From the sequence record NC_048071.1: 40,060 nucleotides of DNA; one strand, given 5' to 3'. Both the position numbers and the translations under genes were made by a program. The DNA comes from Escherichia phage IMM-002. Each line of letters begins with the position of its first letter. The first letter of the stretch is position 1. Shown here in pieces: positions 1 to 40,060 of the stretch. The notes under the pieces are model-generated. The model ran no database searches. It was not told the DNA's origin and saw only the letters and a program-made list of their open reading frames with translations.

Positions 1-189
1 TCTCACAGTTCAAGAACCTCAAGTCTCCCCATAGGGTCACTCTCAGTCCGACTCAAGGCCCTACCCATAGACCTTCGGTCTAAACCTCAAGTCATTGACC
101 CGAAGTCGCCCCGAAGTCTGGACTGATAGTGCCTATATCTTGTGGTTGGGACGATTGGTCGGGACTATATGTAGTGCCTCTGAGTCTCT
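1..189. repeat. Left direct terminal repeat (DTR), identical to 39872..40060
   Basis: First 189 nt match the last 189 nt of the window base for base (aligned by eye); T7-like genomes carry 160-230 bp DTRs. Confidence 0.9.
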
Positions 190-3496: not shown

Positions 3497-6178
3497 ATGA
3501 GCGTCATCTCAATTGACAAGCACGACTTCTCTGATGTGTCGAATGCAATCGAACCATTCAACGTGCTGGCTGACCACTACGGTCAGGACCTAGCAGTAAA
3601 ACAGCTTCAGCTTGAGCATGAGGCGTACACTGAAGGCGAGCGACGTTTCATCAAGAACCTTGAGCGCCAAGCTGAGCGCGGGGAGCTGGCAGACAATCAG
3701 GTCGCCAAGCCACTGATGCAAACTCTGGTCCCGACCATCGCCAAGGCTGTTCGTGAGTGGCACGAAGGCCCGGACGGTAAGTCCTCGACCTCTCGCCCAA
3801 GCGTAGCGTTTACCATGCTGAGCACTGACGAGAAGGCTGTCAAAGACCGCTCTCTGCGAATCTCTGCTGAGTCTGCTGCGGTCATCATACTGAAAGTCAT
3901 CCTCAGCAAGCTGGTCAAGCCTGAGGGAATCCCGATAACGCCGATGGCCTCCGCGATTGGTCGCACACTTGAAGATGAAATCCGCTTCGGTCGCATCCGT
4001 GAGCAGGAGCAGGAGCACTTCAAGAAGACCATAGCTGAGAATCTGAAGAAACGTGCAGGAGCAAGCTACAAGAAAGCCTACATGCAAGCGGTCGAAGCCT
4101 CCATGCTGGAGCAAGGGCAACTGGCTGACGCTTGGGGGACTTGGAGTCCGACCGAGGCGGTACACGTAGGCATCAAGATGCTGGAGCTGGTCATCCAGTC
4201 CTCGCAACTGGTCGAACTGAAGCGCTACGGTGCGGGTAACGCTGCGGCAGACGTCGAGATGGTCCACCTGTCAGACTTCTGGGTCAAGAAGATGTCGCAA
4301 CGTGGCTTCTCACTGGCTGGCATCGCTCCGGTCTACCAACCTTGCGTCGTTCCACCTAAGCCGTGGACCGGGGTCGTGGGTGGTGGGTACTGGGCTAAGG
4401 GCCGAAGACCTCTCCCGCTGATTCGCTTAGGGTCCAAGGCTGCGGTCCAGCGCTACGAAGACGTGTACATGCCTGAAGTCTACGAGGCAGTGAATATCAT
4501 CCAGCAGACACCTTGGAAGGTGAACAAGAAGGTGCTGGACGTGGTGAACATGGTCGAGAAGCTGAACAACACGCCTATCGCTGACATCCCTCAGATGGAA
4601 CCGATGAAGCCTGAGGACTATGCAGGTGAGACCGAGGAAGAACTCAAAGCGTGGAAGAAAGCCGCTGCTGGTATCTATCGACGCGAGAAGGCCCGACAGT
4701 CCCGCCGTTTGTCCCTGAGCTTCATCGTCGGACAGGCGAACAAGTTCTCTCAGTTCAAGGCCATCTGGTTCCCATACAACATGGACTGGCGCGGTCGAGT
4801 CTATGCGGTCCCGATGTTCAACCCTCAGGGTAACGACATGCAGAAGGGCCTGCTGACTCTGGCAGTAGGCAAGCCAATCGGTGCGGACGGCTTCAAGTGG
4901 CTGAAGGTCCACGGTGCAAACTGCGCTGGTGTCGATAAAGTCACCTTCGAGGAGCGCATCAAGTGGGTCGAAGACAACCACGACAACATCCTCGCGGCTG
5001 CTAAGAGTCCGATGGATAGCATTGACTGGTGGGGTCAGTTAGACTCTCCGTTCTGCTTCCTCGCGTTCTGCTTCGAGTATGCTGGAGTCATGCACCACGG
5101 GCTGAGCTACTCCTGCTCACTGCCTATCGCGTTCGATGGGTCCTGCTCTGGGATTCAGCACTTCAGCGCGATGCTTCGTGACCACGTTGGTGGACATGCG
5201 GTCAACCTGACGCCAAGCGGGAAGGTCCAAGACATCTACCGCATTGTGTCAGACCGGGTGGAAGAACAGCTTAAGGAGCTGCTGGTCAACGGAAGTGACA
5301 ACGAGGTGAAGACCTTCGAGGACAAGAAGACAGGCGAGATTACTGAACGTCTGGTCCTTGGAACTCGCGAGCTGGCCCGTCAGTGGCTGACCTACGGGAT
5401 GTCACGCTCGGTCACTAAACGCTCGGTCATGACTCTGGCCTATGGGTCGAAGGAATACGGGTTCGCGGACCAAGTGTTTGAGGACACCGTGATGCCAGCG
5501 ATTGACAGCGGCAAGGGCGCGATGTTCACGGACCCAAGCCAAGCGTCACGCTTCATGGCTAAGATGATTTGGGATGCGGTAAGCGTGACCGTAGTTGCTG
5601 CGGTAGACGCGATGAAGTGGCTGCAAGGCGCTGCTAAACTGCTGGCTGCTGAGGTCAAGGACAAGAAGACAAAAGAGGTCCTTAAGCCTTGCCTCCCGGT
5701 TCACTGGGTAACGCCTGATGGCTTCCCGGTCTGGCAGGAATACCGAAAGAAGGACACCACCCGTCTGAACCTCCTGTTCCTTGGGTCGTTCAACCTGCAA
5801 CCGACAGTCAACAAAGGGTCTAAGAAAGAGCTGGACAAGCACAAGCAGGAGTCTGGTATCAGCCCTAACTTTGTACACTCACAGGACGGCAGTCACCTGA
5901 GGAAGACTGTGGTCCACACCCACCGCAAGTATGGCGTGATGTCCTTCGCAGTGATTCACGATAGCTTCGGGACCATCCCGGCTGACGCTGAGTTCCTGTT
6001 CAAGGGTGTCCGTGAGACGATGGTTGAGACCTACCGCGACAACGATGTGCTGCAAGACTTCTACGAGCAGTTCGCAGACCAGCTTCATGAGAGCCAGCGC
6101 GACAAGTTGCCCGAGCTGCCGAAGCGCGGTAAACTGAACATCGAAGACATTCTGTTATCTGACTTTGCATTCGCCTAA
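3497..6178 (+). CDS. 1: Single-subunit DNA-directed RNA polymerase (T7 gene 1 type)
   Basis: 893 aa from ATG 3497 (AAGGA RBS; track ORF opens at 3452); collinear with T7 RNAP incl. PWTGxxGGGYWA, AIWFPYNMDWRGRVYA, FCFLAFCFEYAGV, SGIQHFSAMLRD, HDSFGT and C-terminal SDFAFA. Confidence 0.97.
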   Translation: MSVISIDKHDFSDVSNAIEPFNVLADHYGQDLAVKQLQLEHEAYTEGERRFIKNLERQAERGELADNQVAKPLMQTLVPTIAKAVREWHEGPDGKSSTSRPSVAFTMLSTDEKAVKDRSLRISAESAAVIILKVILSKLVKPEGIPITPMASAIGRTLEDEIRFGRIREQEQEHFKKTIAENLKKRAGASYKKAYMQAVEASMLEQGQLADAWGTWSPTEAVHVGIKMLELVIQSSQLVELKRYGAGNAAADVEMVHLSDFWVKKMSQRGFSLAGIAPVYQPCVVPPKPWTGVVGGGYWAKGRRPLPLIRLGSKAAVQRYEDVYMPEVYEAVNIIQQTPWKVNKKVLDVVNMVEKLNNTPIADIPQMEPMKPEDYAGETEEELKAWKKAAAGIYRREKARQSRRLSLSFIVGQANKFSQFKAIWFPYNMDWRGRVYAVPMFNPQGNDMQKGLLTLAVGKPIGADGFKWLKVHGANCAGVDKVTFEERIKWVEDNHDNILAAAKSPMDSIDWWGQLDSPFCFLAFCFEYAGVMHHGLSYSCSLPIAFDGSCSGIQHFSAMLRDHVGGHAVNLTPSGKVQDIYRIVSDRVEEQLKELLVNGSDNEVKTFEDKKTGEITERLVLGTRELARQWLTYGMSRSVTKRSVMTLAYGSKEYGFADQVFEDTVMPAIDSGKGAMFTDPSQASRFMAKMIWDAVSVTVVAAVDAMKWLQGAAKLLAAEVKDKKTKEVLKPCLPVHWVTPDGFPVWQEYRKKDTTRLNLLFLGSFNLQPTVNKGSKKELDKHKQESGISPNFVHSQDGSHLRKTVVHTHRKYGVMSFAVIHDSFGTIPADAEFLFKGVRETMVETYRDNDVLQDFYEQFADQLHESQRDKLPELPKRGKLNIEDILLSDFAFA

Positions 6179-6471: not shown

Positions 6472-6929
6472 TGTTCAACCGTAAACTGAAGGCACGTATC
6501 GCAGCACTTGAAGCAACCATACAGCGTCAGGACCACAACCTTGAGCTGGCTAATCGAGAGCAAGCACGGCTGAGGGCCAAACTACAAAAAGCTGAGACCA
6601 AGCGTGAAGTCGAGCCTTTACGTGTGAAGCGCATGGTCGGCCTGAAGTTCAAGGCGCTGTTCAACGGTATCTACCAGCCGACTGAGTTCAAGACCGGGCC
6701 GGGACCATGTGGAAAGACAGTAACGCACTTCACCACGAGCCGAGACGAGCGGACGCTGACCATCCACCAGCACCATACGGACGAGTCCAGCAAGAGCTTT
6801 GAGTATCGGCTGAGCGACATCGACGGTCGCATCCAGTATGACTACGAGCTGGTGCAGGTTTACGGTGAGGAGGCAGAGCGGGAACGTATGGTCCAAGCCC
6901 TCCGCAACAGACCGCGCTTCATAGCCTAA
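6472..6929 (+). CDS. Hypothetical protein with N-terminal coiled-coil
   Basis: ATG 6472 preferred (GTG 6402 in track overlaps the microprotein); KLKARIAALEATIQRQDHNLELANREQARLRAKLQKAE heptad-like region. Confidence 0.5.
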
Positions 6930-6947
6930 ACTATCACTATAGGATTA
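6925..6947 (+). promoter_or_regulatory. Phage RNAP promoter (phi1.1-equivalent)
   Basis: CTAAACTATCACTATAGGATT, +1 about 6942. Confidence 0.8.
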
Positions 6948-9560: not shown

Positions 9561-9711
9561 GAAGAAGTATATCGTGGAACTTGAAGGGCGCGTTCAGTCC
9601 TTTGACGTCCCGGTCTACGCTAAGTCTCTGGACGAGGCGACCCTGAAGGCTCAGGAATATGAAGATGCTGGTTTCGTGGTAGGCCGCATCCGACCTGAGC
9701 TGCACGACTAA
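9541..9711 (+). CDS. 2: Gp2-like inhibitor of host RNA polymerase
   Basis: 56 aa (below track cut-off); [32 protein letters not shown] matches T7 Gp2 [33 protein letters not shown]. Confidence 0.75.
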
Positions 9712-9729
9712 ACTATCACTTTAGGAACA
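9707..9729 (+). promoter_or_regulatory. Phage RNAP promoter (phi2.5-equivalent)
   Basis: CTAAACTATCACTTTAGGAAC, +1 about 9724. Confidence 0.75.
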
Positions 9730-10457: not shown

Positions 10458-10910
10458 GTGGCTGCATGGACACCAAAACGGGGGCACTCTGTGGGTGCCT
10501 ACCGCTCTGGACTTGAGGCCAAGAACCAGCAGTGGCTGGAACAGAACGGCGTCAAAGCGGAGTACGAAAGCCATTATATCAACTATGTGATTCCGGCTTC
10601 CGACCACAAGTATACACCAGACTTCATCCTTCCGAATGGCATCATCGTCGAGACCAAAGGTATCTTCGACAGTGAGGACCGCAAGAAGCATATGCTGGTG
10701 CGCGAGCAGCACCCTGAGCTGGACATCCGGTTCGTGTTCTCGTCCTCCCGCTCCAAGCTGTACAAAGGGTCGCCGACCACGTATGGCGCATGGTGCGAAA
10801 AGAACGGCTTTAAGTTTGCCGACAAGTTTATCCCGGTTGAGTGGCTGAAAGAGGCGACTGTACGTCTGCCTTCCGGTATACTCATCCCGAAGAAAGGAGC
10901 TAAGAAATGA
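10458..10910 (+). CDS. 3: Endonuclease I (Holliday-junction resolvase)
   Basis: 150 aa, GTG start; YRSGLE, YTPDFILPNGIIVETKG, DRKKHMLVREQHPELDIRFVFSSSRSKLYKGSPTTYG, KFADK collinear with T7 gp3. Confidence 0.95.
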   Translation: MAAWTPKRGHSVGAYRSGLEAKNQQWLEQNGVKAEYESHYINYVIPASDHKYTPDFILPNGIIVETKGIFDSEDRKKHMLVREQHPELDIRFVFSSSRSKLYKGSPTTYGAWCEKNGFKFADKFIPVEWLKEATVRLPSGILIPKKGAKK

Positions 10911-11356
10911 CTAAGCATTTAACGTGTGTTGATTTACCATTTGGTGCTCAGTACAAATTCCACCCTGACGTCATTGAGGCGCACCCAGGACTGAGCACTG
11001 ACACGTATGAGCGTCGGGATAATCACTCGGTTGTTGTAACGGGTCCATTCAAGGGGAACACTGTACAATGGTACGGACATGAGAAGACTCGCATTGTCGA
11101 AGTTGGAAAACCTCAAGTCCTGCCAGCCTCAAGCGTACCGCCTGTGACAGTGAAACGTGAAGTCCTGACCATCGACAAGATTGGTGTGGGTCAGACGTTC
11201 ATCGTTCACGGTAAGCCTGACGAAGTGTACGTGAAGATTAGCAACTCGCACGTCTTCAACCATAAGCGTCTCCAGATGCACACGACTGTAGCAGAGCGCT
11301 TCCAGTCACACCTGAATCTGGTCGTTGTTGAGCTGGTGGTGTACAATGGCAAGTAA
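10907..11356 (+). CDS. Hypothetical protein inserted between endonuclease I and lysozyme
   Basis: 149-aa ORF, ATGA coupling, AAAGGAG RBS; AT-rich codons at 5' end; no T7 counterpart at this position. Confidence 0.55.
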   Translation: MTKHLTCVDLPFGAQYKFHPDVIEAHPGLSTDTYERRDNHSVVVTGPFKGNTVQWYGHEKTRIVEVGKPQVLPASSVPPVTVKREVLTIDKIGVGQTFIVHGKPDEVYVKISNSHVFNHKRLQMHTTVAERFQSHLNLVVVELVVYNGK

Positions 11357-11804
11357 GGTACAGTTCAAACCACGTACAGTCACTGACGCAATCTTCGTCC
11401 ACTGTAGTGCTACACAACCGTCTCAGGACATCGGGGTAGACACTATCCGCATGTGGCACAAGCAGCAGGGCTGGCTTGACGTAGGCTATCACTTCGTCAT
11501 CAAACGCGATGGCACCGTGGAGTCTGGACGTCCGGTCGATGTCGTAGGGTCACACGTTAAGGATTGGAACTCCCGGTCCGTAGGCGTCTGCCTTGTAGGT
11601 GGAATCGACGCTAAGGGCAAGTTTGAAGCTAACTTCACTCCTGCTCAGATGAGCGCCCTACGCAACAAGCTGGCTGAACTGAAGGTCCTGTACCCTCAGG
11701 CAGACATCAAGGCCCATCACGATGTGGCACCAAAGGCTTGCCCAAGTTTCGACTTGCAGCGCTGGCTGAACACTAACGAAATGGTCACTTCCGACCGAGG
11801 CTAA
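11346..11804 (+). CDS. 3.5: N-acetylmuramoyl-L-alanine amidase (T7 lysozyme type)
   Basis: 152 aa from ATG 11346; VQFKPR, DAIFVHCSAT, WLDVGYHFVIKRDGTVESGR, VGVCLVGGID, KGKFEANFTPAQM, HHDVAPKACPSFDL, VTSDRG nearly identical to T7 gp3.5. Confidence 0.96.
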   Translation: MASKVQFKPRTVTDAIFVHCSATQPSQDIGVDTIRMWHKQQGWLDVGYHFVIKRDGTVESGRPVDVVGSHVKDWNSRSVGVCLVGGIDAKGKFEANFTPAQMSALRNKLAELKVLYPQADIKAHHDVAPKACPSFDLQRWLNTNEMVTSDRG

Positions 11805-11818
11805 CAAGGAGTAATAAC

Positions 11819-12031
11819 ATGATTAAGTTTATCGAATTTCTGGGTCGTCTGGTTGTGCGTGGTTATTCTCGTGCTGCGAGTGTGGAACGAAAAGTCGCAT
11901 CTGCTGCGGCTAAAGGTGCGGAAGCGGCTGCTGCGGAAGCGGATAGTCTGCGCATCAAGTCTCTGGACGCTGGCCTCCGTGCGCGTGGTCTGGACAAGAA
12001 GGCCGAGCAACTGAAAGGCTTCTTCAGCTAA
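11819..12031 (+). CDS. Hypothetical Ala-rich protein
   Basis: 70-aa ORF with AAGGAG RBS. Confidence 0.5.
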   Translation: MIKFIEFLGRLVVRGYSRAASVERKVASAAAKGAEAAAAEADSLRIKSLDAGLRARGLDKKAEQLKGFFS

Positions 12032-12049
12032 ACTATCACCTTAGGGATG
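12027..12049 (+). promoter_or_regulatory. Phage RNAP promoter
   Basis: TAAACTATCACCTTAGGGATG, +1 about 12044. Confidence 0.7.
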
Positions 12050-17883: not shown

Positions 17884-18006
17884 TCTACTGGGCCGGACTT
17901 CTGGCCCTTTACGCGATGTACGCAATCAGTGGGTCTAACCGACCGAAGCACTGAGTCTAACCGATAGTCATAACCTATCGTTCTACTGGCCATCTATAGG
18001 TGAAAC

Positions 18007-18029
18007 ACTAAACTATCACTATAGGGACT
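18007..18029 (+). promoter_or_regulatory. Phage RNAP promoter (phi6.5-equivalent)
   Basis: CTAAACTATCACTATAGGGAC, +1 about 18024. Confidence 0.85.
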
Positions 18030-20900: not shown

Positions 20901-21776
20901 ATGTCTCAATCAGTTTATGCCGAGTTCGGCGTTAGCCCTAATGCAATCACTGGCTCCGTTGAGGACCTGAACGAACATCAACAGTCTATGCTGGAGAAGG
21001 ACGTAGCTGTCCGTGATGGCGATGATGCTATTACCTTCAAGCAACTGGAAGCCGAGCAGGAAGAGGCGACCGAAGAAGACGAGAACGTCGAAGAGACTGA
21101 AGAGGAAGAAGAGGTTGAAGAAACCGAAGACTCCGAAGGTCAAGACCAAGAGTTCATCGAACTGGGTGACACTCCGAAAGAGCTGACCGAAAGTGTCTCT
21201 GCTCTGGACGAGAACGAAGCTGCATTCGATGACATGGTGTCTGCTGCTGTAGAAGCTGGCAAGGTCACTGCTGATGACATCGCCACTATCAAGGCTGAAT
21301 ACGCTGCGAACGGTGAGCTGTCCGAGGCATCCTACGCTAAGCTGGCTGAAGCTGGCTACACCAAGCGTTTCGTCGATTCGTTCGTCCGTGGTCAGGAAGC
21401 TCTGGCTGAGCAGTATGCTGCTGGTGTGATTCGCTACGCTGGTGGTGCTGAGCAGTTCAACCGCATCCTGTCTCACCTTGAGGCCAACGACAAGTCCACC
21501 AAGGAGGCCCTTGAGTCTGCCATCATCCGTAAGGACTTGGTGACAGCTAAGGCTATCCTGAATCTGGCTGGTCGTAACCTCGGTAAGGCTCGTGGTGTCC
21601 AGCCTCAGCGTACCATCACCACTCAGGGTAAACCAGCGGTCTCTGCACCGAAGGTCGAGACTGAAGGCTTCAGCTCCAAGGCTGATATGGTCAAGGCCAT
21701 GAGTGACCCGCGCTATCTGCGTGACGCTAAGTACACGATGGATGTACGCGCTAAGGTTGCTGCGTCTAGCCTGTAA
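20901..21776 (+). CDS. 9: Capsid assembly (scaffolding) protein
   Basis: 291 aa from ATG 20901 (AGGAGG RBS); acidic, VYAEFGV, AVRDGDDAI, EASYAKLAEAGYTKRFVDSFVRGQEALAEQY, AKAILNLAG, AMSDPRY match T7 gp9. Confidence 0.9.
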   Translation: MSQSVYAEFGVSPNAITGSVEDLNEHQQSMLEKDVAVRDGDDAITFKQLEAEQEEATEEDENVEETEEEEEVEETEDSEGQDQEFIELGDTPKELTESVSALDENEAAFDDMVSAAVEAGKVTADDIATIKAEYAANGELSEASYAKLAEAGYTKRFVDSFVRGQEALAEQYAAGVIRYAGGAEQFNRILSHLEANDKSTKEALESAIIRKDLVTAKAILNLAGRNLGKARGVQPQRTITTQGKPAVSAPKVETEGFSSKADMVKAMSDPRYLRDAKYTMDVRAKVAASSL

Positions 21777-21781
21777 GCTGG

Positions 21782-21804
21782 ACTAAACTATCACTATAGG
21801 GAGA
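21782..21804 (+). promoter_or_regulatory. Phage RNAP promoter (phi10-equivalent), best match to consensus
   Basis: CTAAACTATCACTATAGGGAGA, +1 about 21799. Confidence 0.9.
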
Positions 21805-39871: not shown

Positions 39872-40060
39872 TCTCACAGTTCAAGAACCTCAAGTCTCCC
39901 CATAGGGTCACTCTCAGTCCGACTCAAGGCCCTACCCATAGACCTTCGGTCTAAACCTCAAGTCATTGACCCGAAGTCGCCCCGAAGTCTGGACTGATAG
40001 TGCCTATATCTTGTGGTTGGGACGATTGGTCGGGACTATATGTAGTGCCTCTGAGTCTCT
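39872..40060. repeat. Right direct terminal repeat (DTR)
   Basis: Identical to 1..189; window ends inside or at the end of the repeat. Confidence 0.9.

What the first reader, a model, noticed from the sequence alone, without database searches (positions are those of the whole stretch)
10907..11356. Extra gene inserted between endonuclease I and lysozyme
T7 places gene 3.5 directly after gene 3. Here a 149-aa ORF with a good RBS is coupled to both neighbours (ATGA overlap upstream, 11-nt overlap downstream). Its 5' end uses AT-rich codons (TTA, GTT, CCA, TTT) unlike the flanking genes, suggesting acquisition. Function unknown.
Basis: seen in the sequence. Interest (0 to 1): 0.45.

Follow-up and report, generated by a model that had tools for sequence, protein, structure and literature searches.

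The report
Kayfunavirus gp3.2 with swappable N-terminal module
The "extra" gene between the endonuclease and the lysozyme is the standard, still uncharacterised gp3.2 of K1F-like phages; only its front half is an exchangeable module, here in an unusually divergent version, fused to a near-invariant back half.

Summary
There is a 149-codon ORF at 10907-11356 with an AAAGGAG ribosome-binding site. It shares an ATGA overlap with gene 3 and an 11-nt overlap with gene 3.5, and its 5' end is AT-rich.

The reading "acquired extra gene" is only partly right. The window is a complete Kayfunavirus genome. The ORF is the genus-wide gp3.2 (PHROG 16385/15211, function unknown). It occurs in 219 of 225 phage records that carry this region, always between endonuclease I and the amidase. 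T7 and T3 lack it.

The protein has three parts:
- N-terminal module (aa 1-67): predicted SH3-like barrel, GC3 0.46. It is one of at least five unrelated interchangeable cassettes, and about 120 phages have none.
- Tether (aa 68-83): Pro-rich, KPQVLPASSVPPVTVK, with dN about 0.
- C-terminal barrel (aa 84-149): basic, SH3-like, dN about 0, with the invariant motif SNSHxFN...QMHTT...RF.

Identity to close relatives collapses exactly across 10907-11100, so the cassette, not the gene, was exchanged by recombination.

No homolog with a known function exists by sequence or by fold. I infer a class II accessory binding protein: a constant core that recognises a conserved partner, plus a variable host-tuning module. 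That function is untested. Interest is moderate.

The parts
10893..10899 (+). Shine-Dalgarno site AAAGGAG for gp3.2, inside the last codons of gene 3
   Evidence: Read directly. The same AAAGGAG is present upstream of the ATG in all 16 loci displayed.
10907..11356 (+). gp3.2 coding sequence (149 aa plus TAA stop), 16.8 kDa, pI 9.0
   Evidence: ORF. PHROG 16385 (E 3.7e-50) and PHROG 15211 (E 1.6e-41), both of unknown function. tblastn finds 218 phage records. Purifying selection.
10907..10910 (+). ATGA overlap: start of gp3.2 and stop of gene 3 (endonuclease I)
   Evidence: The same overlap was checked in all 26 loci and no exception was flagged.
10907..11107 (+). N-terminal variable module, type A (aa 1-67): predicted SH3-like beta-barrel and exchangeable cassette
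11108..11155 (+). Conserved Pro-rich tether KPQVLPASSVPPVTVK (aa 68-83); right-hand recombination junction of the cassette
   Evidence: The peptide is nearly identical behind module types A-D. dN is 0 or near 0 (0-0.03) with dS 0.08-0.66, so the constraint acts on the peptide. Identity to relatives recovers to 87-97% from about 11107.
11156..11353 (+). Constant C-terminal domain (aa 84-149): basic SH3-like barrel with invariant motifs SNSHxFN (aa 112-118, nt 11240-11260), QMH-T (aa 123-127) and RF (aa 131-132)
11335..11356 (+). Gene 3.5 initiation region embedded in the last codons of gp3.2: GGTGGTG SD-like site, ATG at 11346, 11-nt overlap
   Evidence: The SH4 table in PMC4925675 lists GCTGGTGGTgtacaATG as the gene 3.5 RBS. 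The last 10 residues of gp3.2 are modelled at low confidence, so their conservation may partly reflect this overlap (inference).
10458..10910 (+). Gene 3, endonuclease I (upstream neighbour, translationally coupled)
   Evidence: Pfam PF05367 at E 1.3e-80, covering residues 1-149.
11346..11804 (+). Gene 3.5, amidase/lysozyme (downstream neighbour, translationally coupled)
   Evidence: Pfam PF01510 at E 5.6e-16.
9708..9725 (+). Phage-RNAP promoter copy (CTAAACTATCACTTTAGG) upstream of gene 2.5. It is the nearest upstream promoter, so it probably drives genes 2.5, 3, 3.2, 3.5 and the small ORF 11819-12031.
   Evidence: Member of a 13-copy repeat family. The next copy is at 12028-12045, before gene 4, and none lies inside gp3.2.

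Best explanation
The ORF is the Kayfunavirus gene 3.2.

Shown:
- It is a real, expressed-looking middle (class II) gene. It lies downstream of the phage promoter before gene 2.5 and is translationally coupled to endonuclease I upstream and to the amidase/lysozyme downstream.
- Its product has three parts. The first is a variable N-terminal domain (aa 1-67). The second is a strongly conserved Pro-rich tether (aa 68-83). The third is a near-invariant basic C-terminal domain (aa 84-149) that alone makes up the whole protein in about half of the genus.
- The N-terminal domain is a cassette. At least five mutually unrelated types, tandem combinations of them, and an empty state all occupy the same slot. 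The slot is bounded by the 3' end of gene 3 on the left and by the tether on the right.
- In this phage the cassette is a highly divergent type-A allele.

Predicted: both domains fold as small SH3-like beta-barrels.

Inferred (not shown):
- The constant barrel is the functional core. It binds a conserved ligand through its invariant polar/aromatic patch (Y-x-K-x-SNSH-x-FN...QMHTT...RF). The ligand would be nucleic acid or a conserved protein of the replication/transcription/lysis machinery.
- The N-terminal barrel is an accessory binding module. It adds or tunes a host-specific interaction such as an adaptor, a decoy or a counter-defence role.
- The cassette is shuffled between co-infecting phages by homologous recombination in the conserved flanks.
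For: Identity and position:
- PHROG matches.
- 218-219 phage records, nearly all Kayfunavirus by name or taxonomy, carry the gene under 'hypothetical protein' between endonuclease and amidase.
- Distant homologs from metagenomes keep the same position.
- An exhaustive HMMER search of 1.84 billion representatives finds only 14 clusters, all carrying the C-domain.

Modularity:
- N-module types A to D and tandem forms.
- Type E and the short form.
- Profile-profile comparison shows no relation among the modules.
- Census: A 24, B 56, C 10, D 2, E 4 records, the remainder short form.

Recombination:
- Identity to Pisces, 03_vB_Eclo_IJM and EV136_1 is 97-100% up to about 10890. It collapses across 10907-11095 and recovers at 11107.
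- Against Pisces, dS is 0.07 in gene 3 and 0.15 in gene 3.5, but 0.67 in the gp3.2 C-domain.
- dS of the N-module and C-domain disagree within one pair: 0.036 against 0.41.
- P0005 has a C-domain 100% identical to the window's but an N-module only 37% identical.

Selection:
- C-domain and tether have dN about 0 with substantial dS.
- The N-module has omega about 0.25.

Charge: the C-domain has pI 9.2 and type-A modules have a median pI of 4.9.

Transcription context: promoter copies lie at 9708 and 12028 only.
Against: - No experimental or homology-based evidence bears on function. Pfam, NCBIfam, PADLOC and PDB sequence searches are all empty.
- BFVD neighbours are all uncharacterised.
- The folds are predictions. 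In the full-length run the C-domain had pLDDT below 50.
- The N-module shows moderate purifying selection, not clear positive selection. Faster evolution could therefore be relaxed constraint rather than an arms race.
- Module type associates only loosely with host genus.
- The low GC3 of the modules could reflect weaker codon selection or selection for an unstructured 5' mRNA, not a foreign origin.
Confidence: 0.6

Rival explanations
1. One reading: the whole gene is a recently acquired foreign insert (a moron) between gene 3 and gene 3.5 of an otherwise T7-like backbone.
For: T7 and T3 have no gene at this position. The 5' third has low GC and GC3. No homolog exists outside a narrow group of phages.
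Against: The C-terminal 70 aa and the position are conserved in 219 of 225 related phage records and in distant uncultured relatives. The 3' 250 nt have backbone-like GC3 of 0.65. Only the cassette at 10907-11100 shows breakpoints. The gene contains no promoter, terminator or mobility gene.
Confidence: 0.07
2. Nucleic-acid-binding replication/recombination accessory factor. The basic C-terminal SH3-like barrel would bind DNA or RNA, as Sso7d, KOW or KIN17-type barrels do. It would modulate the neighbouring DNA-metabolism functions (SSB, endonuclease I, primase-helicase). The N-modules would be dispensable decorations.
Against: Net charge is only about +2 to +4. No known DNA-binding motif or family match was found. 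T7 and T3 carry out the same DNA metabolism without this gene. The fold matches are weak.
Confidence: 0.2
3. Counter-defence or host-takeover protein. The constant domain would inhibit or sequester a conserved host factor or immune signal. The variable N-modules would be alternative inhibitors of strain-specific defence proteins, which would explain the polymorphism.
Against: No sequence relation to any defence-related family was found in PADLOC, although PADLOC holds defence systems, not anti-defence proteins. N-module omega is about 0.25, not above 1. The commonest state is no module at all. The Tad2 match is far below significance.
Confidence: 0.15
4. Lysis-associated partner of the amidase: an SH3b-like peptidoglycan-binding or RNAP/lysozyme-modulating protein made in fixed ratio with gp3.5.
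Against: The sequence shows no obvious signal peptide or membrane segment (read by eye only, GRAVY -0.27; no predictor was run). There is no Pfam SH3_3, SH3_5 or SH3b match. In some Salmonella phages gp3.2 is followed by other genes, not by the amidase (rows H293-H297). In L027 another gene intervenes. T7 lysozyme needs no such partner.
Confidence: 0.05
5. Spurious ORF or annotation artefact: not a protein-coding gene.
For: Some records leave it unannotated (YZ1). The K1F reference copy is frameshifted near its 3' end.
Against: dN/dS is 0.06-0.22 with dS up to 1.4. dN is about 0 in the C-domain and tether. The RBS and both overlaps are conserved. AlphaFold2 models are confident. There is no Rfam or tRNA signal.
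Confidence: 0.01

Closest known systems
Kayfunavirus gp3.2 (EcoDS1 and Dev2 'gp3.2'; CR44b/CR8 '3.01'; K1F 'unknown' AAZ72978; PHROG 16385 long form and PHROG 15211 short form)
   Same: Same gene: same position between gene 3 and gene 3.5, same overlaps, and a tether and C-domain 80-100% identical.
   Different: The window's N-terminal 67 aa are a divergent type-A allele. They are at most 42% identical to any cultured phage and at most 48% to any metagenomic protein except P0001. Its closest genomic relatives here (Pisces, Dev2, SH4) carry the short form without any module.
FeoA and the C-terminal SH3-like domain of DtxR/IdeR/MntR metalloregulators
Domain-level mosaicism of phage proteins (Smug et al. 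2023, PMC10684548), and constant-plus-variable two-domain phage proteins such as AcrIIA1 (recalled from memory)
   Same: A constant domain is fused to interchangeable, unrelated domains, with recombination breakpoints at domain boundaries.
   Different: This case involves a roughly 70-aa cassette in a class II accessory gene of a T7-like lytic phage. It does not involve receptor-binding proteins, endolysins or regulators, and no function is known for any part. I saw only the abstract of that paper in a search listing and did not check whether this family is in its data.
T7/T3 gene 3 - gene 3.5 junction
   Same: The gene order 2.5 - 3 - (3.2) - 3.5 - 4 is the same, and 3.5 is translationally coupled to the gene before it.
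   Different: In T7 and T3 the amidase gene directly abuts or overlaps gene 3. In Kayfunavirus gp3.2 is intercalated and carries the 3.5 initiation region in its own last codons.

Membership tests
Kayfunavirus gp3.2 (PHROG 16385 / 15211) | Significant match to the family profiles | tested here: met
   phrog_16385 at E 3.7e-50 (aa 61-149) and phrog_15211 at E 1.6e-41 (aa 80-149).
Kayfunavirus gp3.2 (PHROG 16385 / 15211) | Located between endonuclease I (gene 3) and the amidase (gene 3.5), overlapping both | tested here: met
   The arrangement is the same in L001-L004, K1F and ten further records. No exception was flagged in the 26 loci.
Kayfunavirus gp3.2 (PHROG 16385 / 15211) | C-terminal motif Y-x-K-I-SNSHxFN...QMH-T...RF...L | tested here: met
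   Window residues Y108, S112-N118, Q123-T127, R131 and F132. The corresponding columns are invariant in alignments A3 and A4, which include the most distant homologs.
SH3-like beta-barrel fold (FeoA/DtxR-C, KOW, Tudor type) | Five- to six-stranded small barrel that superposes on solved members | tested here: inconclusive
FeoA (PF04023) / iron-dependent repressor C-terminal domain | Sequence membership in the Pfam family and an iron-transport or regulation context | tested here: not met
   No Pfam hit at E up to 1. The neighbours are phage DNA-metabolism genes.
SH3b peptidoglycan-binding domains of endolysins | Match to SH3_3, SH3_5 or SH3b profiles, and fusion to or export with a lytic enzyme | tested here: not met
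   No Pfam match. The protein is separate from the amidase and has no evident export signal. The export signal was judged from the sequence by eye only.
Known anti-phage defence proteins (PADLOC-DB) | Profile match | tested here: not met
   0 families at E up to 5 for five representatives. Anti-defence libraries such as dbAPIS or AntiDefenseFinder were not available, so membership in those was not tested.
Mobile insert / homing-endonuclease-associated moron | Own promoter or terminator, mobility enzyme, or sporadic distribution | tested here: not met
   No phage or sigma-70 promoter and no terminator inside or at the borders. No nuclease domain. The gene is present in 219 of 225 records.

The most novel reading that the evidence does not exclude
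gp3.2 would be a polymorphic effector scaffold of T7-like phages. A constant SH3-like anchor domain would dock onto a conserved phage or host machine. A recombination-exchangeable slot in front of it (empty, single or tandem) would hold small unrelated barrels. Each barrel would neutralise or recruit a different strain-specific host factor, such as a defence protein. That would make this a cassette-based counter-defence locus inside the class II gene block.
Probability: 0.2. Interest if true: 0.65.

Novelty: new member of a known kind. Interest (0 to 1): 0.35.

Why it matters
Kayfunaviruses such as K1F, LM33_P1 and CLB_P1 are used and engineered as therapeutic phages, yet gp3.2 is annotated only as hypothetical.

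This analysis shows three things:
- The gene is close to a core gene of the genus, present in 219 of 225 related records.
- Its core domain is under extreme purifying selection.
- Its N-terminal slot is a discrete recombination cassette.

That gives a concrete and cheap experimental handle: delete or swap 200 bp and look for host-specific fitness effects. It also marks a safe or unsafe site for engineering.

For the scan, the lesson is that "extra relative to T7" here means genus-specific, not recently acquired.

Tried and rejected
- **Sequence family searches.** Pfam, NCBIfam and PADLOC gave no match, and PHROGs gave only the two families of unknown function. This covered the window protein, all other module types and the distant homologs.
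- **PDB sequence searches.** A single-sequence search and a profile search found nothing.
- **Exhaustive HMMER profile search.** Against 1.84 billion representatives it found only 14 clusters, all the same gene. Module A does not occur in any other protein context at E up to 0.001.
- **N-module as a diverged duplicate of the C-domain.** By eye, DL-VG-YKF / YEKRE-HSVIV / W-GH / VVEV resembles DKIGVGQTFIV / YVKISNSHVFN / QMHTT / VVEL. hhalign gives probability 0.5%, and every module-to-module comparison is below 10%. This idea is not supported.
- **Nucleotide-level explanations for C-domain conservation.** I looked for an embedded promoter, terminator or RNA. No phage promoter copy, no sigma-70 excess, no terminator, no Rfam family and no tRNA were found. 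dS is substantial. These are rejected, except for the last roughly 8 codons, which carry the gene 3.5 initiation region.
- **Positive selection on the N-module.** Omega is mostly 0.04-0.5. Two values above 1 occur only at dS about 0.02, which is noise. Not demonstrated.
- **Gene 3 dN/dS.** My first ungapped extraction was misaligned for about half of the loci (dN about 2). I used only the loci that aligned.
- **Literature.** Searches for gp3.2, K1F, Kayfunavirus and hyper-variability hotspots gave only a genome table that lists the gene without a function.

Full report
**1. The observation**

The window is a complete 40,060-bp phage genome, IMG/VR UViG_2974592685, with 189-bp direct terminal repeats.
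- The ORF at 10907-11356 (+) encodes 149 aa.
- AAAGGAG lies at 10893-10899, 7 nt before the ATG.
- The ATG overlaps the TGA of the upstream gene (ATGA). That gene is endonuclease I (Pfam PF05367, E 1.3e-80).
- The downstream amidase/lysozyme (PF01510, E 5.6e-16) starts at 11346, 11 nt before the TAA of the ORF.

- The first 60 nt have GC 0.38, the 2nd percentile of the genome.
- The first 67 codons have GC3 0.46, against 0.65 in the rest of the gene and 0.61-0.68 in genes 2.5, 3, 3.5 and 4.
- That GC3 is the 2.4th percentile of 1813 in-frame 67-codon windows.

T7 and T3 do have gene 3.5 directly after gene 3. The description is therefore accurate.

**2. It is a real gene and a known one**

tblastn finds the protein in 218 phage records. 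These are overwhelmingly Kayfunavirus, from Escherichia, Salmonella, Enterobacter, Citrobacter, Shigella, Klebsiella and Cronobacter hosts.
- The C-terminal 72 aa alone hit 219 records.
- 225 records share the gene 3-3.2-3.5 stretch at the DNA level.
- The gene is called gp3.2 in EcoDS1 and Dev2, 3.01 in CR44b and CR8, and 'unknown' in K1F.
- It corresponds to PHROG 16385 (long form) and PHROG 15211 (short form), both of unknown function.
- In every locus inspected it sits between endonuclease I and the amidase with the same overlaps.

The family is narrow.
- An exhaustive HMMER profile search of 1.84 billion representative proteins found only 14 clusters.
- The most distant members (P0124, P0126, P0128, P0129; 36-65% identity in the C-domain) come from uncultured T7-like phages. 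They are again encoded right after Phage_endo_I and before Amidase_2.

The substitution pattern shows a protein under selection.
- For the last 66 codons, dN/dS is 0.06-0.22 at dS 0.1-1.4 against 25 loci.
- Among type-A relatives, dN is essentially 0 at dS up to 0.45.
- No Rfam family, tRNA, phage promoter, sigma-70 excess or terminator lies in the gene.
- Phage promoter copies (CTAAACTATCAC-T-TAGG) lie at 9708, before gene 2.5, and at 12028, before gene 4. The gene is therefore part of the class II 2.5-3-3.2-3.5 transcription unit (inference from position).

**3. Anatomy: a constant core and a cassette**

Aligning homologs shows three parts.

(i) The C-terminal domain (aa 84-149) is nearly invariant.
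- Across all homologs, including the distant ones, these positions never change: G, F, Y108, S112-N113-S114-H115, F117-N118, Q123-M124-H125, T127, R131-F132 and L136.
- About 120 of the 219 phages have a 74-76-aa short form that is just this domain. They include the window's closest relatives in this region (Pisces, Dev2, SH4, GW1).

(ii) The tether is KPQVLPASSVPPVTVK (aa 68-83).
- It is conserved as a peptide behind every module of types A-D.
- Its codons vary synonymously (GCC/GCT, TCA/TCG, CCG/CCT/CCA and others).
- dN is 0 at dS 0.08-0.66 in nearly all pairs, and 0.03 in the pairs that involve L045.

(iii) The N-terminal module (aa 1-67) is variable.
- At least five mutually unrelated types occupy this slot. 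Type A is the window's type. Type B is the K1F, EcoDS1 and JSS1 type. The others are C, D and E.
- Tandem combinations B+A, C+A and D+A exist, at 221-227 aa.
- hhalign finds no relation among the modules or to the C-domain; all probabilities are below 10%.
- In cultured phages the counts are A 24, B 56, C 10, D 2 and E 4.
- None of the modules was found anywhere other than this slot in the phage collection. Module A is also absent from any other protein in the exhaustive search.

**4. The cassette, not the gene, was exchanged**

Against Pisces, 03_vB_Eclo_IJM and EV136_1, nucleotide identity follows one pattern.
- It is 97-100% through gene 3, up to about 10890.
- It collapses to background or gap across 10907-11095.
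- It returns to 87-97% at 11107, the first codon of the tether.

Histories inside the gene are discordant.
- The window's C-domain is 100% identical to that of P0005, whose N-module is only 37% identical.
- L006 and L040 have dS 0.036 in the N-module but 0.41 in the C-domain.
- Against Pisces, gene 3 (dS 0.07) and gene 3.5 (dS 0.15) are close, but the gp3.2 C-domain is not (dS 0.67).

The modules evolve faster than the core.
- Mean pairwise identity is 52% (type A) and 69% (type B), against 89-94% for the attached C-domains.
- They are still under purifying selection, with omega about 0.25.
- AlphaFold2 models the type-A module confidently from a 33-sequence alignment.
- The window's allele is an outlier. 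It is at most 42% identical to any cultured phage and at most 48% to any metagenomic protein apart from P0001, which is 98% identical over the full length.

Low GC3 (0.43-0.57) is a property of all module types, against 0.60-0.70 for the tether plus C-domain in the same genes. It does not mark a foreign origin of the gene. Whether it reflects a distinct history, weaker codon selection or selection for an open 5' mRNA cannot be decided here.

**5. Fold**

- Full-length AlphaFold2 gave pLDDT 80-92 for residues 1-70 and below 50 for the rest.
- I re-predicted the C-domain with an alignment that includes the distant homologs. That run gave mean pLDDT 80 and pTM 0.67, with six strands and a short helix.
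- Foreign BFVD neighbours are uncharacterised phage proteins, mostly 55-125 aa.
- The C-domain is basic (pI 9.2; the short form is 9.7). Type-A modules are acidic (median pI 4.9; this one is 6.5).
- The last roughly 8 codons (ELVVYNGK) also encode the gene 3.5 SD-like site and its ATG. They are modelled with low confidence, so their conservation may be partly due to the overlap (inference).

**6. What it most likely does**

Nothing in Pfam, NCBIfam, PADLOC, PDB or the literature I could search assigns a function.

From the anatomy I commit to this reading.
- The constant barrel is the functional unit. It suffices in half the genus and has dN about 0.
- It binds a partner that is conserved across enterobacterial hosts or is phage-encoded.
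- Binding goes through the invariant polar/aromatic patch.
- The N-terminal barrel is an accessory binding module that is traded among phages and tunes the protein to particular hosts.

Within that frame, my rough probabilities are:

| Reading | Probability |
|---|---|
| Nucleic-acid-binding DNA-metabolism accessory factor | about 0.2 |
| Counter-defence or host-takeover effector scaffold | about 0.15-0.2 |
| Lysis or amidase partner | about 0.05 |
| Unspecified protein-protein adaptor | the remainder |

The architectural and evolutionary statements are shown. The fold is predicted. Binding and function are inferred.

**7. Novelty and verdict**

The gene is a new, strongly divergent allele of a known but uncharacterised family, so I class it as a new member of a known kind. 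I did not find the cassette organisation described in the searchable literature. It is the most interesting by-product, but it concerns the family, not this window specifically.

The gene as a whole is genus-conserved and was not recently acquired. Interest is moderate (0.35).

Noticed in passing
window 1-189 and 39872-40060: Perfect 189-bp direct terminal repeats. The window is a complete T7-like linear genome (IMG/VR UViG_2974592685_000001).
   Followed up: partly
window 3390-39324 (13 copies; e.g. 6916-6943, 9698-9725, 12018-12045, 17998-18025, 21773-21800): A family of 13 phage-RNAP promoter-like repeats with core CTAAACTATCACTATAGG. Two adjacent copies lie at 17998 and 18027.
   Followed up: partly
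L033 (K1F, DQ111067) 1246-1716: The K1F reference copy of gp3.2 (module B) departs from the family after ...QMHTT and ends in unrelated residues. This is probably a frameshift or sequencing error in the 2005 record.
   Followed up: partly
L032 (Escherichia phage YZ1, MG845865) 1490-1710: The short-form gp3.2 is present in the DNA but not annotated. In that record the amidase is labelled 'RNA polymerase inhibitor'.
   Followed up: partly
L027-L029 (Logan contigs) 4456-4812: A distant uncultured T7-like phage has an additional 118-aa ORF of unknown function between its gp3.2 homolog and the amidase. Salmonella phages of the PRF-SP/STP-SP group also have other hypothetical genes, not the amidase, after gp3.2. 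The gene 3-3.5 interval looks like an insertion hotspot.
   Followed up: no
L004 (03_vB_Eclo_IJM, OP272492) and related IJM records: The amidase and ssDNA-binding genes are split into fragments in the annotation (for example a 53-codon gene 3.5). This suggests indel sequencing errors in these records.
   Followed up: no
phage collection records MT350292 (Enterococcus phage EFA-1), OR786095 (Staphylococcus phage MBBL139), PV615262 (Acinetobacter phage vB_Aba_01KA): These records match the window's Kayfunavirus gp3.2 and flanking genes but are named after hosts outside Enterobacterales. They are likely mislabelled or contaminated. vB_EholP_HHH is filed under Teseptimavirus although it carries this Kayfunavirus-type region.
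   Followed up: no
window 11819-12031: The small ORF after the amidase (70 aa, the gp3.7-like 'hypothetical protein' of relatives) has the second-lowest GC3 of the genome's genes (0.49).
   Followed up: no
window 11101-11119 vs 7-25 / 39878-39896: A 19-nt stretch at the cassette/tether junction (AGTTGGAAAACCTCAAGTC) is 84% identical to a sequence in the terminal repeat (AGTTCAAGAACCTCAAGTC). This is probably chance.
   Followed up: no
L002 (EV136_1, MZ223858) 2648-2726: That record labels a 'tRNA' misc_feature between gene 3.7 and gene 4. ARAGORN finds no tRNA anywhere in the window, and the homologous window region holds the phage promoter at 12028.
   Followed up: partly
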